Virus record (IMG/VR): IMGVR_UViG_2706795462_000001
Reading direction: 5' to 3' (one strand)
Length of the DNA: 64,000 nt
Origin: a virus
Taxonomy: Duplodnaviria > Heunggongvirae > Uroviricota > Caudoviricetes > Herelleviridae
The notes under the pieces were generated by a model. The model saw only the letters and a list, made by a program, of their open reading frames with translations. It made no database searches and had not been told where the DNA came from. Numbering within the stretch: position 1 is the first letter of the stretch; each line of letters opens with the position of its first letter. Below, one piece after another: positions 36,157-37,749 of this stretch. The position numbers and the translations under genes are program-made.

Positions 36157-36217
36157 GCCTTCCTTGTGTTATATTATTATCGAGAATTCAATAATAAAGC
36201 ATAGGGAAGGCTTTTTT
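36157..36217 (+). terminator. Long terminator hairpin containing the late-promoter motif TGTTATATTA (36167-36176)
   Basis: 36157-36178 pairs with 36190-36211; T6 follows. Confidence 0.7.
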
Positions 36218-36276: not shown

Positions 36277-36909
36277 ATGGCTAAAAAGAATGTTAATGAT
36301 GTATTACAACAAGAATCTGTTACAGTAGCAGATAAGTATTTACAAGTTAAAGTTAACCGTGACGGTTATACTCGTACACACGAAGGACAATATGCGTACA
36401 AAGTAGTTTCAGAGGGAGAAGAGTTATTCTTATACCCAGTACAAACAGATGGTAAAGGTACATTAAATGTAATGAAGAAATCACCTATTGCTTACACTGA
36501 TGGAGACAATATCCATTTTGTAGTAAATACAGTAGTAGACCCTTATAATCACTCATTTATCCGTACTGAAGATATTAAAGGATTAGATAAAGGTAAACAA
36601 CTTATTCAAGCTTTCTTAGCTTTCGTTGAAGACCGTTTCAAATTTGGTGTTTATAACGTATTTGTTGCAAATAACAAAGAAGATGTATTATCTATCGTAG
36701 ACCCTGCAGATAATGATGCAGATGAAGTTAAAGATAGTTTAGAGCATGCACATGAAGATGTAATTGCGGATTTCCCTGCTAGCCCTGCTCGTAAGGACGT
36801 TAAAGGCGTAGATTCAGGAGAAGGTCAAGGAGACACTTCAGAACCATCAGCACCTAAGAACGTTCAAGTTACTCCTAAGGAAGACGGAGCAGACGTATCA
36901 GCAGAATAA
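36277..36909 (+). CDS. Virion accessory protein (210 aa) ending in an FN3 A/B-strand-like peptide
   Basis: C-terminus PSAPKNVQVTPKEDGADVSAE; downstream of the late motif. Confidence 0.75.
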   Translation: MAKKNVNDVLQQESVTVADKYLQVKVNRDGYTRTHEGQYAYKVVSEGEELFLYPVQTDGKGTLNVMKKSPIAYTDGDNIHFVVNTVVDPYNHSFIRTEDIKGLDKGKQLIQAFLAFVEDRFKFGVYNVFVANNKEDVLSIVDPADNDADEVKDSLEHAHEDVIADFPASPARKDVKGVDSGEGQGDTSEPSAPKNVQVTPKEDGADVSAE

Positions 36910-36930
36910 TATAGATAAAGGATGGTAAAT

Positions 36931-37443
36931 TTGGCTAAGTTAAATTTATACAAAGGTAATGAGTTACTAAACAGCGTAGAGAAAACAGAAGGAAAATCAA
37001 CAATCACGATTGAGAATTTAGATGCTAACACAGATTACCCTAAAGGTACTTTTAAAGTATCATTCTCAAATGATTCAGGAGAATCAGAGAAGGTCGATGT
37101 CCCTCAGTTTAAGACAAAAGCAATTAAAGTTATTTCAGTTACCCTTGACGTTGATAGTTTAGACCTTACAGTTGGAGATACTCACCAACTATCAACAACT
37201 ATCACGCCTAGTGAAGCATCTAACAAAAATGTGTCATTTGAATCAGACAAATCAGGTGTTGCTAGTGTAACATCAGAAGGATTAATTGAAGCAGTTAGTG
37301 CAGGAACAGCTAATATTACTGTAACTACTGAGGATGGTAGTCATACTGATATTGTTGCGGTAACAGTTAAGGAACCTATTCCTGAAGCACCTACAGATGT
37401 AACAGTTGAACCTGGTGAAAATAGCGCAGATATTACTGCATAG
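36931..37443 (+). CDS. Ig-like virion protein (170 aa, TTG start): partial FN3 + Big_2 + FN3 A/B-like peptide
   Basis: Big_2 pattern LTVGDTHQL...PSEASNKNVSFES...VASV..EGLIEAVSAGTANITVTT; RBS AAAGGATGG. Confidence 0.85.
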   Translation: MAKLNLYKGNELLNSVEKTEGKSTITIENLDANTDYPKGTFKVSFSNDSGESEKVDVPQFKTKAIKVISVTLDVDSLDLTVGDTHQLSTTITPSEASNKNVSFESDKSGVASVTSEGLIEAVSAGTANITVTTEDGSHTDIVAVTVKEPIPEAPTDVTVEPGENSADITA

Positions 37444-37457
37444 GAGGACAATAAAGA

Positions 37458-37685
37458 ATGGAAAAGACATTAAAAGTTTATAGTAATGGTGAAGTTGTAG
37501 GCTCTCAAGTAGCTAATAACGATGGAGCTACTACAGTATCTATTACAGGCTTAGAAGCCGGAAAAACTTATGCTAAGGGAGCTTTTAAAGTAGCATTTGC
37601 TAATGATTCAGGTGAATCAGAAAAAGTAGATGTTCCTGAATTTACAACTAAAACTCCTGCTGAAGAACCTTCAGAAGAAGCATAA
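37458..37685 (+). CDS. 75-aa partial-FN3 protein, paralog of the N-terminus of 36931-37443
   Basis: Shares FKV.F.NDSGESEKVDVP.F.TK; RBS AGGAGG. Confidence 0.85.
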   Translation: MEKTLKVYSNGEVVGSQVANNDGATTVSITGLEAGKTYAKGAFKVAFANDSGESEKVDVPEFTTKTPAEEPSEEA

Positions 37686-37690
37686 TAATT

Positions 37691-37749
37691 AAGACCAACT
37701 AAAAAGTTGGTCTTTTTTTATTGACAATTTATAATATCTATGATACACT
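37691..37749 (+). promoter_or_regulatory. Terminator (37691-37720) followed by a sigmaA promoter (TTGACA 37721, TACACT 37744)
   Basis: AAGACCAACT/AGTTGGTCTT + T-tract; 17-nt spacer. Confidence 0.85.

What the first reader, a model, noticed from the sequence alone, without database searches (positions are those of the whole stretch)
36277..37685. FN3 domain split across gene boundaries twice: candidate tag/catcher chain for virion decoration (anchor, extender, cap)
Seen: gene 1 ends PSAPKNVQVTPKEDGADVSAE (36844-36906) and gene 2 ends PEAPTDVTVEPGENSADITA (37381-37440). These are 10/20 identical and read like FN3 strands A-B. Gene 2 begins, and gene 3 consists almost entirely of, the complementary remainder (LxxYxG..T(I/V)(T/S)IxxLxAxxxY..FKVxFxNDSGESEKVDVPxFxTK), resembling strands C-G. 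Each gene has its own RBS. Junction 1 is in frame but has two TAA stops; junction 2 changes frame, so simple readthrough cannot explain both. Inference: the fold is completed in trans by strand complementation, as with pilus donor strands. Gene 1 would be the anchor (tag only), gene 2 an extender (catcher-Big_2-tag, able in principle to self-polymerise) and gene 3 a cap (catcher only). This would give a modular Ig fibre whose length is set by stoichiometry, expressed from a late promoter. From unverified memory, staphylococcal siphovirus tail-tube genes end in a similar peptide before a similar ORF, which would make it a portable module.
Basis: partly seen in the sequence, partly recalled or inferred. 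Interest (0 to 1): 0.88.

Follow-up and report, generated by a model that had tools for sequence, protein, structure and literature searches.

The report
Split FN3 plug-and-socket joins virion proteins
Three neighbouring virion genes of this Staphylococcus kayvirus each carry part of a fibronectin-type (FN3) domain cut at the same loop, so the proteins most likely join on the capsid by completing each other's fold, a connector that many Gram-positive phages share and that I could not find described in print.

Summary
The window comes from a Staphylococcus kayvirus (phage K/812 type).

- **Gene 1** (36277-36909) is the head cement protein. It ends in a 20-residue peptide that matches FN3 strands A-B.
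- **Gene 2** starts with FN3 strands C-G, continues into a Big_2 domain and ends in a second A-B peptide. Its true start is probably TTG 36931, not ATG 36922.
- **Gene 3** (37458-37685) is a bare C-G piece.

Unsplit homologues align across the break, which places the cut in the B-C loop. AlphaFold2 folds the in-frame read-through of junction 1 into a full FN3 (pLDDT 90).

Published intact masses from phage 812 virions, which I recomputed, match three separate full-length chains. That argues against recoding and against covalent linkage.

The split is conserved in Twortvirus, Silviavirus and about 30 siphovirus lineages. In most of the siphoviruses the A-B peptide lies in the +1 frame, after a CCC codon at the end of the major tail or major capsid gene, and it sits inside a covarying RNA hairpin.

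Binding in trans remains an inference.

An earlier follow-up in this scan (e1-5384277) reached the same reading on another kayvirus genome. I class this as a new variant of a known kind.

The parts
36277..36909 (+). Gene 1, the anchor: head cement protein, 210 aa (phage 812 gp151)
   Evidence: Residues 2-175 are 99% identical to PDB 9rox/9roz chain A. phrog_1240 E 7.5e-55. The 812 record annotates it as 'head cement protein; structural component of the capsid'. The mass without Met, 23,068 Da, matches the observed 23,070.
36844..36906 (+). Tag 1: FN3 strands A and B at the C-terminus of gene 1
   Evidence: It aligns to the A-B segment of unsplit FN3 homologues. In the AlphaFold2 read-through model, strands lie at model residues 8-14 and 18-24, and residues 11-20 have pLDDT 96. 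This part lies outside the residues present in the PDB chain.
36907..36930 (+). Junction 1: TAA, a 21-nt spacer with an SD-like AAAGGATGG, then the TTG start
   Evidence: Sequence. It is in frame with two TAA stops. Spacer length and frame differ in Twort, Remus and other relatives.
36931..37443 (+). Gene 2, the extender: catcher + Big_2 + tag, 170 aa from the TTG start (phage 812 gp152)
   Evidence: The mass of the TTG-started form without Met is 17,717 Da against 17,718 observed. phrog_341 E 9.8e-60.
36931..37119 (+). Catcher 1: FN3 strands C, C', E, F and G
   Evidence: Catcher HMM E 3.1e-31. The sub-threshold Pfam fn3_2 match covers only profile positions 31-85 of 89. AlphaFold2 places strands at model residues 35-40, 43-49, 54-60 and 73-79.
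37129..37350 (+). Big_2 Ig-like domain
   Evidence: Pfam PF02368, 51.4 bits against a cut-off of 22.8, E 1e-13.
37381..37440 (+). Tag 2: FN3 strands A and B at the C-terminus of gene 2
   Evidence: 10/20 identical to tag 1. It is one of only two motif hits in the window and aligns with the A-B segment of unsplit homologues.
37441..37457 (+). Junction 2: TAG overlapping a strong SD (TAGGAGG), 14-nt spacer, frame change
37458..37685 (+). Gene 3, the cap: a catcher followed by a short acidic tail, 75 aa (phage 812 gp153)
   Evidence: Catcher HMM E 2e-32. The phage 812 homologue weighs 7,817 Da with Met against 7,819 observed, and 96% of its sequence was covered by MS/MS in virions.
37691..37714 (+). 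Intrinsic terminator that closes the three-gene unit
   Evidence: A 10-bp stem followed by a T-run. A terminator is annotated at the same position in Remus.

Best explanation
The three genes encode a non-covalent plug-and-socket chain displayed on the capsid.

The cement protein (gene 1) sits in the capsid lattice. It ends in a flexible linker and a beta-hairpin 'plug', which is FN3 strands A and B. Gene 2 starts with an FN3 'socket' that lacks exactly those two strands. Strands C', C, F and G form one sheet, and strand E is left alone on the other. The socket continues into a Big_2 Ig domain and ends in a second plug. Gene 3 is a bare socket.

Each plug inserts next to strand E of a socket and closes the sandwich. 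The assembled fibre therefore has the topology of cement-FN3-Big_2-FN3 with a nick in each B-C loop.

What is shown and what is inferred:
- Shown by sequence, homology and fold prediction: the fold is split at the B-C loop.
- Shown by published masses that I recomputed: the three products are separate, unprocessed chains in virions.
- Inferred: they bind each other in trans.
- Inferred from strict gene adjacency: plug and socket probably meet as they are translated from one mRNA.
- Inferred from weak plug specificity: the two plugs are nearly identical within Twort and Remus, so the cap may sit on either plug. The extender's conserved TTG start, against the cap's ATG with a strong SD, would favour capping and keep fibres short.
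- Inferred from family knowledge: the displayed Ig-like domains probably give weak adhesion to host surface polymers, as proposed for phage Ig-like domains generally.
For: 1. Unsplit homologues. Tandem-FN3 proteins (P0001, P0022, P0036, P0050, P0056, P0063) carry a tag-like 25-32-residue segment directly before every internal catcher-like segment. The window's tags align to that segment, and the break falls in the B-C loop.
2. Fold prediction. The in-frame read-through of junction 1 (TAA read as Gly) folds with pLDDT 90.2 and pTM 0.78, with both tag strands confident. Every top Foldseek PDB hit is an FN3 domain, with TM 0.65-0.73 over the full length.
3. Separate chains. My computed masses of 23,068, 17,717 and 7,817 Da match the observed 23,070, 17,718 and 7,819 Da in phage 812 K1/420 virions (PMC5923470). 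Initiation is therefore independent, both tags are retained, and no crosslink shows in the detected species.
4. Capsid location. Gene 1's N-domain is modelled in PDB 9rox/9roz, but only up to residue 175. The linker and tag are absent from the chain.
5. Conserved split. The split is present in Kayvirus, Silviavirus, Twortvirus and a phiSA_BS-like lineage. Every catcher ORF in 35 distinct IMG/VR loci has a stop-terminated tag 11-71 nt upstream.
6. Translation of the tag in siphoviruses. The tag lies in the +1 frame behind CCC_TAR, CCC_AGC/TCG_TAA or CCC_ACA at the end of major tail or major head genes. pN/pS is 0.45 in the tag frame against 1.17 and 1.28 in the other two frames. A hairpin with 9 covarying pairs surrounds these tags (z -2.7 to -7.0 in 8 of 8 tested). 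It is absent from all four 0-frame tags tested (z +0.9 to -0.1).
7. Second lineage. A 3A-type +1-frame tag joined through its spacer to its catcher also folds as FN3 (pLDDT 92.2).
8. Modularity. A Twort-like contig (L033) has the anchor followed directly by the cap.
Against: - No direct test of binding was possible.
- A single-chain AlphaFold2 model guided by an alignment that contains unsplit homologues shows that the pieces are compatible. It does not show affinity in trans.
- No solved structure contains a catcher.
- Neither piece reaches Pfam's fn3 threshold.
- MALDI detects the major species only. A minor fused or crosslinked form cannot be excluded.
- The capsid location of gene 2 and gene 3 products is inferred only from the tag on gene 1. 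GenBank records call them tail proteins, apparently by homology.
- The masses are from phage 812 (about 98% nucleotide identity), not from this isolate.
Confidence: 0.72

Rival explanations
1. Recoding: double stop read-through, ribosome hopping or frameshifting makes one long cement-FN3-Big_2-FN3 protein, and the separate ORFs are an annotation artefact.
For: Junction 1 is in frame in Kayvirus, Silviavirus and the L025/L034 lineage. Phage Ig-like domains are often added by recoding (PMC5009743).
Against: Intact virion masses fit three independent chains, with N-terminal Met processing as expected for separate initiation. Junction 1 has two stops. Junction frames and spacer lengths differ between genera, and every junction has its own SD and start codon. 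The window's tag regions have no RNA structure (z +0.9 and +0.06).
Confidence: 0.03
2. Relic of gene fission without complementation. The catchers fold or attach on their own, for example directly to the capsid or tail, and the C-terminal peptides are only leftover linkers.
For: Binding was not tested. Phage 812 has an orphan catcher gene (gp33) with no tag upstream. Some siphovirus extenders end in a tag with no cap gene after them.
Against: A five-strand FN3 lacking A and B has an open hydrophobic core. The tags are conserved across genera, and the +1-frame tags are under purifying selection. Siphoviruses keep a dedicated frameshift cassette that adds only this roughly 20-residue peptide. 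Tag and catcher are adjacent in 35 of 35 loci.
Confidence: 0.12
3. Self-complementation. Gene 2's own C-terminal tag fills its own N-terminal socket, either in cis or in homo-polymers, so the chain does not start from the cement protein.
For: Gene 2 carries both halves. Natural 89-residue catcher-tag proteins exist (L009, P0004).
Against: In cis, the tag would have to reach back past the Big_2 domain and the whole FN3 with a linker of about 8 residues. This is a geometric inference, not a computation. The rival does not explain the tag on gene 1 or the tag-less gene 3. Homo-polymerisation is compatible with the main explanation rather than a replacement for it.
Confidence: 0.08

Closest known systems
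Bacillus phage SPP1 tail tube proteins gp17.1 and gp17.1* (PMC6316719)
   Same: An FN3 domain decorates a virion structural protein. In the siphovirus relatives found here the addition uses the same kind of +1 shift at CCC followed by a stop. Decoration is sub-stoichiometric (3:1 in SPP1) and the domain is non-essential.
   Different: In SPP1 the whole 87-residue FN3 is made in cis by the frameshift. Here only strands A-B are attached to the structural protein, in the 0 frame in this window and in the +1 frame in siphoviruses. The rest of the domain is a separate gene product.
Listeria phage PSA cps and tsh +1 frameshifts (ACA_CCC and CCC_UGA; PMC5009743)
   Same: The siphovirus relatives share the same shift-site context (ACA CCC followed by a stop) at the 3' ends of major capsid and major tail genes, together with a downstream RNA structure.
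   Different: PSA makes long C-terminal extensions in cis. No split domain or downstream 'socket' gene is described. The window itself needs no frameshift.
Donor-strand complementation in chaperone-usher pili
   Same: An incomplete Ig-like fold is completed by a strand from the neighbouring subunit, giving non-covalent head-to-tail chains with a terminating subunit.
   Different: Pilins lack one C-terminal strand (G) and receive an N-terminal extension, with help from a chaperone and an usher. Here two N-terminal strands (A and B) are missing and are supplied as a C-terminal hairpin. No chaperone is evident, and the system is cytoplasmic and viral.
Engineered FN3 fragment complementation and SpyTag/SpyCatcher (from memory, not checked here)
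   Same: A beta-sandwich split into a short peptide and a larger fragment that reassemble.
   Different: Those systems are man-made. SpyTag/SpyCatcher comes from a CnaB domain and forms an isopeptide bond. The virion masses here show no covalent link.
Cement proteins of other Herelleviridae with Big_2 domains in cis (Listeria LP-048 gp145, Enterococcus PEf771 gp190)
   Same: They have a homologous N-terminal cement domain at the same genome position, after the sigma factor gene, and display Ig-like domains.
   Different: There the Ig domains (one to three Big_2) are covalently fused, with no FN3 connector. The Bacillus homologue has no Ig domain at all.

Membership tests
FN3 fold (fibronectin type III beta-sandwich) | A seven-strand sandwich, with sheets A-B-E and C'-C-F-G | tested here: met
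   The joined tag 1 + catcher 1 model has six DSSP strands of three or more residues plus short G-strand bridges. The top 50 Foldseek PDB hits are almost all FN3 domains, with TM up to 0.73. The feature is met only by the two pieces together, not by either gene product alone.
FN3 fold (fibronectin type III beta-sandwich) | A sequence match to Pfam fn3-type models above the gathering score | tested here: not met
   fn3_2 scores 15.6 bits against 27 and fn3 scores 13.4 bits against 25. The matches cover only the later part of each profile (positions 31-85 of 89 and 41-76 of 84), as expected for a domain lacking A-B. The catcher profile hits fibronectin FN3 domains in the PDB only weakly (E 2.5e-4).
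Herelleviridae head cement protein (phrog_1240; PDB 9rox) | A homologous N-terminal domain found in the capsid structure | tested here: met
   Residues 2-175 match the 9rox chain at E 1.4e-112. phrog_1240 E 7.5e-55.
Big_2 (PF02368) | A Pfam match above the gathering score | tested here: met
   Gene 2 residues 70-143 score 51.4 bits against 22.8.
Frameshift-appended FN3/Ig extension (SPP1 gp17.1* type) | The extension is reached by a +1 shift at CCC followed by a stop | tested here: not met
   In the window both tags are in the 0 frame and their regions have no RNA structure. The feature is met in about 25 siphovirus relatives.
Frameshift-appended FN3/Ig extension (SPP1 gp17.1* type) | The whole domain is made in cis on the structural protein | tested here: not met
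   Only strands A-B are on the structural protein. A stop, an SD and a start codon precede strands C-G in every locus examined.
Chaperone-usher donor-strand complementation | The pilin lacks strand G, the donor is an N-terminal extension, and a periplasmic chaperone and an usher are present | tested here: not met
   The missing strands are A and B and the donor is C-terminal. No chaperone or usher genes lie in the operon. It works in a similar way but is not a member.
Isopeptide tag/catcher (SpyTag type) | A covalent bond forms between tag and catcher | tested here: not met
   Virion masses equal those of the free chains within 1-2 Da.
Split-FN3 plug-and-socket (proposed here) | Tag and catcher bind in trans | not testable with these tools
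   No multimer prediction was available for this window, and no solved structure contains a catcher.

The most novel reading that the evidence does not exclude
A natural, non-covalent split-FN3 connector is a portable attachment system of Gram-positive phages. A roughly 20-residue A-B hairpin is placed on cement, major capsid or major tail proteins. It is added either constitutively or to a tunable fraction of subunits through a dedicated CCC +1 frameshift cassette with its own RNA hairpin. Any protein that begins with the C-G socket is then recruited to the virion: Ig fibres, tandem FN3 arrays, or larger cargo such as the 568-residue P0030.
Probability: 0.55. Interest if true: 0.82.

Novelty: new variant of a known kind. 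Interest (0 to 1): 0.72.

Why it matters
**Biology.** This would be a new way for phages to fasten accessory proteins to virions. Instead of an interface between folded proteins, a fold is shared between two chains. It would explain three things:
- why small 'major tail protein' or 'Ig-like' ORFs always follow particular structural genes;
- why those genes are widely mis-annotated;
- what the short +1 frameshift extensions of some capsid and tail genes are for.

**Use.** Kayviruses are leading therapeutic phages for S. aureus. A natural 20-residue plug and a 66-residue socket on the capsid would offer a ready display or labelling handle.

**Recoding.** The hairpin-containing CCC cassette is a candidate new class of frameshift stimulator and has no Rfam family.

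Tried and rejected
Nothing was folded, so there is no multimer result in either direction.
- **The search for homologous proteins, 'longer' setting.** For gene 3 it found nothing. For gene 1 it found one 503-residue protein (P0078) carrying a tail-sheath Pfam domain on a 2.4-kb contig. This is probably a chimeric assembly and I did not follow it.
- **Single-protein search for related loci** found only two close relatives. An alignment query was needed.
- **Literature.** Searches for the phage 812 capsid paper behind 9rox, for strand complementation in phage decoration and for split FN3 found nothing relevant. The phage 812 neck paper does not mention these proteins.
- **No whole genome** is held for this window. 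I therefore searched the rest of the genome in the phage 812 record instead.
- **Junction 2** cannot be read through in one frame, so tag 2 with catcher 2 was not folded. I did not try a four-letter-codon translation.
- **Co-variation** between tags and their cognate catchers was considered and dropped, because linkage in one genome confounds it.
- **Recoding as the main route** was rejected on the mass data.
Full report
**What the window is.** The region 36200-37750 matches 212 Staphylococcus phage records, most at 95-99% identity. They are Kayvirus genomes such as phages K, 812, ISP and Sb-1. The three genes follow the RecA-like recombinase and sigma factor genes. In phage 812 they are gp151 ('head cement protein; structural component of the capsid'), gp152 and gp153. 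A terminator at 37691-37714 closes the unit.

**Checking the observation.** The ORFs and junctions are as described.
- Gene 1 (36277-36909) ends ...PSAPKNVQVTPKEDGADVSAE.
- Gene 2 ends ...PEAPTDVTVEPGENSADITA. The two peptides are 10/20 identical.
- Gene 2's first 66 or so residues and gene 3 align at 48% identity.
- Junction 1 is in frame with two TAA codons. Junction 2 changes frame.
- In a six-frame scan of all 64 kb, the tag motif occurs only at these two stop codons. A catcher HMM hits only these two ORFs, at E 2e-32 and 3e-31.
- Pfam finds Big_2 in gene 2 (51.4 bits). It finds only sub-threshold fn3 matches, and those start about 30-40 positions into the profiles, as expected if the first two strands are missing.

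**The two pieces are one domain.** An exhaustive HMMER search with gene 3 found 77 representative proteins, of two kinds.
- In one kind the match starts at residue 1. These are the split forms.
- The other kind are long tandem-repeat proteins with internal matches.

In the second kind (P0001, P0022, P0036, P0050, P0056, P0063), every internal catcher-like segment is preceded by 25-32 residues that resemble the tags. P0050, for example, reads ...PPTIESVTPTEDGAVVIVVSGNGIDGSTMKVY.... In a joint alignment the window's tags fall on that segment and the break falls in the B-C loop.

I translated junction 1 in frame, reading TAA as Gly, and folded it with that alignment.
- The model has pLDDT 90.2 and pTM 0.78.
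- Strands lie at model residues 8-14 and 18-24 (the tag), then at 35-40, 43-49, 54-60 and 73-79. Only the artificial linker dips in confidence.
- The top PDB matches are FN3 domains over the full length, with TM 0.65-0.73.

The tag is therefore the A-B hairpin and the catcher is C, C', E, F and G. A lone catcher would have the C'-C-F-G sheet, with only strand E covering the core.

*Caveat.* This shows that the pieces are compatible, not that they bind in trans. The alignment contained unsplit homologues. Halves of a split domain tend to be predicted well simply because they resemble solved FN3 structures.

**The chains are separate in virions.** A MALDI-TOF study of intact staphylococcal phages (PMC5923470, Table 3) reports masses for phage 812 K1/420 of 23,070, 17,718 and 7,819 Da. 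It assigns them to these three proteins. I recomputed the masses from the 812 record:

| Protein | Form | Computed (Da) | Observed (Da) |
|---|---|---|---|
| gp151 | without Met | 23,068 | 23,070 |
| gp152 | from the TTG start, without Met | 17,717 | 17,718 |
| gp153 | with Met | 7,817 | 7,819 |

This has four consequences.
- Each protein is initiated independently.
- Both tags are retained on the mature proteins.
- No covalent link appears in the detected species.
- Gene 2 begins at the TTG, which is 36931 in the window. The ATG form would weigh 18.0-18.2 kDa.

The same table lists Twort's gene 3 homologue (7,639 Da observed, 7,638 computed). For siphovirus 3A it lists the major tail protein (23,336 Da) and the downstream 'Ig-like domain' protein (15,857 Da) as separate chains.

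**Where the anchor sits.** Gene 1 residues 2-175 are 99% identical to a chain in PDB 9rox/9roz ('Putative Ig-like protein'). That chain stops at residue 175. The linker and tag are absent from the chain, as expected for a flexible tether. No solved structure contains gene 2, gene 3 or any catcher.

**Conservation in Herelleviridae.** Twort, Remus (Silviavirus), Stab22 and a phiSA_BS-like lineage all have the same three genes and the same cut. Several details vary or are conserved in informative ways.
- Spacers are 11-23 nt, and frames differ between genera.
- The extender always starts with TTG. The cap always starts with ATG behind a strong SD.
- Within Twort the two tags are almost identical (PTNVQVSPGETSADIS), and in Remus they are very similar. 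Plug specificity is therefore probably low.
- A Twort-like IMG/VR contig (L033) has the anchor followed directly by the cap, with no extender.
- Other Herelleviridae carry Ig domains on the cement homologue in cis: Listeria LP-048 has one Big_2 and Enterococcus PEf771 has three. The Bacillus homologue has none.

The staphylococcal phages thus replace a covalent fusion with the split-FN3 connector.

**The same connector in siphoviruses, fed by a frameshift.** tblastn with gene 3 hits 495 phage records from Staphylococcus, Enterococcus, Lactobacillus and Brochothrix. In 80 IMG/VR loci, which give 35 distinct upstream regions, every catcher ORF is preceded by a stop-terminated tag 11-71 nt upstream.
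- *Frame.* Only the Herelleviridae and one siphovirus class (L036) have the tag in the 0 frame. In about 25 classes the upstream gene ends ..TP* or ..LPS*, and the tag lies in the +1 frame.
- *Shift sites.* These are ACA/TCA/ACT CCC TAA/TAG, TTA CCC AGC/TCG TAA, and in one case ACT CCC ACA.
- *Anchors.* They are major tail proteins (phrog_88) or major head proteins (phrog_10 and phrog_544, and the Ef6.1 capsid protein).
- *No independent start.* In L029 the +1 ORF opens just one codon before the shift site, so it cannot be translated on its own.
- *Selection.* pN/pS is 0.45 in the tag frame, against 1.17 and 1.28 in the other two frames.
- *RNA structure.* The tag-coding RNA folds into a hairpin in 8 of 8 classes tested, with z from -2.7 to -7.0. 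The outer stem pairs an invariant CCCC with the GGGG that follows the tag's TAG stop, and a 13-pair inner stem lies inside it. Nine of 17 pairs covary. The hairpin is absent from all four 0-frame tags tested, including both in the window (z +0.9, +0.06, -0.14 and -0.13). No Rfam family matches.
- *Precedent.* CCC followed by a stop is the documented +1 site of SPP1 gp17.1*, which adds a whole 87-residue FN3 in cis at a 3:1 ratio (PMC6316719). ACA_CCC and CCC_UGA are the documented sites of Listeria phage PSA (PMC5009743).
- *Fold.* A 3A-type +1-frame tag, joined through its in-frame spacer to its catcher, also folds as FN3 (pLDDT 92.2).

**Catcher cargoes.** Proteins that start with a catcher come in several forms:
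- a bare catcher of 70-76 residues;
- a catcher followed by one to three Big_2 domains;
- catcher + Big_2 + tag with no cap gene after it (L029, L041, L085);
- an 89-residue catcher-tag (L009, P0004);
- tandem unsplit FN3 arrays (P0001);
- a 568-residue protein with a large central domain (P0030).

**Mechanism proposed.** The assembled chain has the topology of cement-FN3-Big_2-FN3, nicked in each B-C loop. The plug's two ends and the socket's N-terminus lie at the same pole of the domain, so the plug can insert as a hairpin beside strand E.
- Strict adjacency on one mRNA suggests the pieces assemble during translation (inference).
- Low plug specificity, together with the weak TTG start of the extender and the strong start of the cap, suggests short fibres of mixed length (inference).
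- The function is probably weak adhesion through the displayed Ig-like domains, as generally proposed for phage Ig-like domains (family knowledge, not tested).

**Rivals.**
- *Recoding into one polyprotein* is contradicted by the masses, the double stop, the variable junction frames and the lack of RNA structure.
- *A non-functional fission relic* is hard to reconcile with tag conservation, with selection in the +1 frame and with a dedicated frameshift cassette that adds only this peptide.
- *Self-closure of gene 2 in cis* is geometrically unlikely, and it does not explain genes 1 and 3.

**Novelty.** The elements are known: FN3 and Ig decoration of virions, frameshift-added FN3, and fold complementation in pili. 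I found no description of a naturally split FN3 used as a non-covalent connector between virion proteins. The held literature and the PDB contain none. An earlier follow-up in this scan (e1-5384277) reached the same conclusion on another kayvirus genome. I reached mine independently before seeing it.

Noticed in passing
window 36922-36933: Gene 2's start is most likely TTG 36931, not ATG 36922. Only the 170-residue form without Met (17,717 Da) fits the published virion mass of 17,718 Da. All Herelleviridae extenders examined start with TTG, whereas the caps start with ATG.
   Followed up: yes
L016:2393-2477, L024:2398-2482, L042:2393-2477 and 14 other IMG/VR loci: A conserved frameshift cassette in siphovirus relatives. 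The layout is CCC, a stop, about 7 nt, an invariant CCCC-AAAA, a 13-bp covarying stem made of the tag codons, and TAG-GGGG. Nine of 17 pairs covary, z reaches -7.0, and no Rfam family matches. The structure is absent where the tag is in the 0 frame.
   Followed up: partly
L033:1851-2716 (Twort-like 73-kb IMG/VR contig): The anchor gene is followed directly by the 71-residue cap and the extender gene is missing. The surviving tag ends ..ADISVE, as Twort's tag 2 does. This suggests a deletion by recombination between the two tag repeats.
   Followed up: partly
phage 812 KJ206563.2 13275-13592 (minus strand; L093:976-1293), outside the window: A third, orphan catcher gene (gp33, 105 aa, GTG start) with a C-terminal extension of about 40 residues. 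It has no tag upstream and is preceded by a terminator and a TGTTATATTA late-type motif. It is present in many but not all kayviruses (2 or 3 tblastn places per record). It could compete for the same plugs.
   Followed up: partly
P0030 (568 aa), P0001/P0002/P0026 (548-744 aa): Proteins that begin with a bare catcher and continue into a large non-Ig domain or into tandem unsplit FN3 repeats. This suggests the socket recruits varied cargo to virions.
   Followed up: no
L005:1375-1500 (Enterococcus phage Ef6.1): A GC-rich hairpin followed by a T-run lies between the +1-frame tag's stop and the catcher's SD, after the major capsid gene. It may act as an attenuator that sets the capsid-to-catcher ratio.
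   Followed up: no
GenBank records listed: The three genes are annotated inconsistently: 'major tail protein', 'tail morphogenetic protein', 'TmpH/TmpI', 'repressor protein', 'kappa-carrageenase precursor'. Gene 1 is a capsid cement protein. The 'tail' names for genes 2 and 3 appear to come only from Big_2 homology.
   Followed up: partly
P0078 (503 aa, from a 2,368-nt contig): A protein 75% identical to gene 1 over its full length that also carries a tail-sheath Pfam domain (PF04984). It is seen once and is probably an assembly chimera.
   Followed up: no
window 36157-36217: The hairpin and T-run after the sigma factor gene contains TGTTATATTA, the motif another note (e1-5430796) calls a late promoter. 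The same motif precedes the orphan catcher gene in phage 812. This is consistent with late expression of the trio but was not tested.
   Followed up: no
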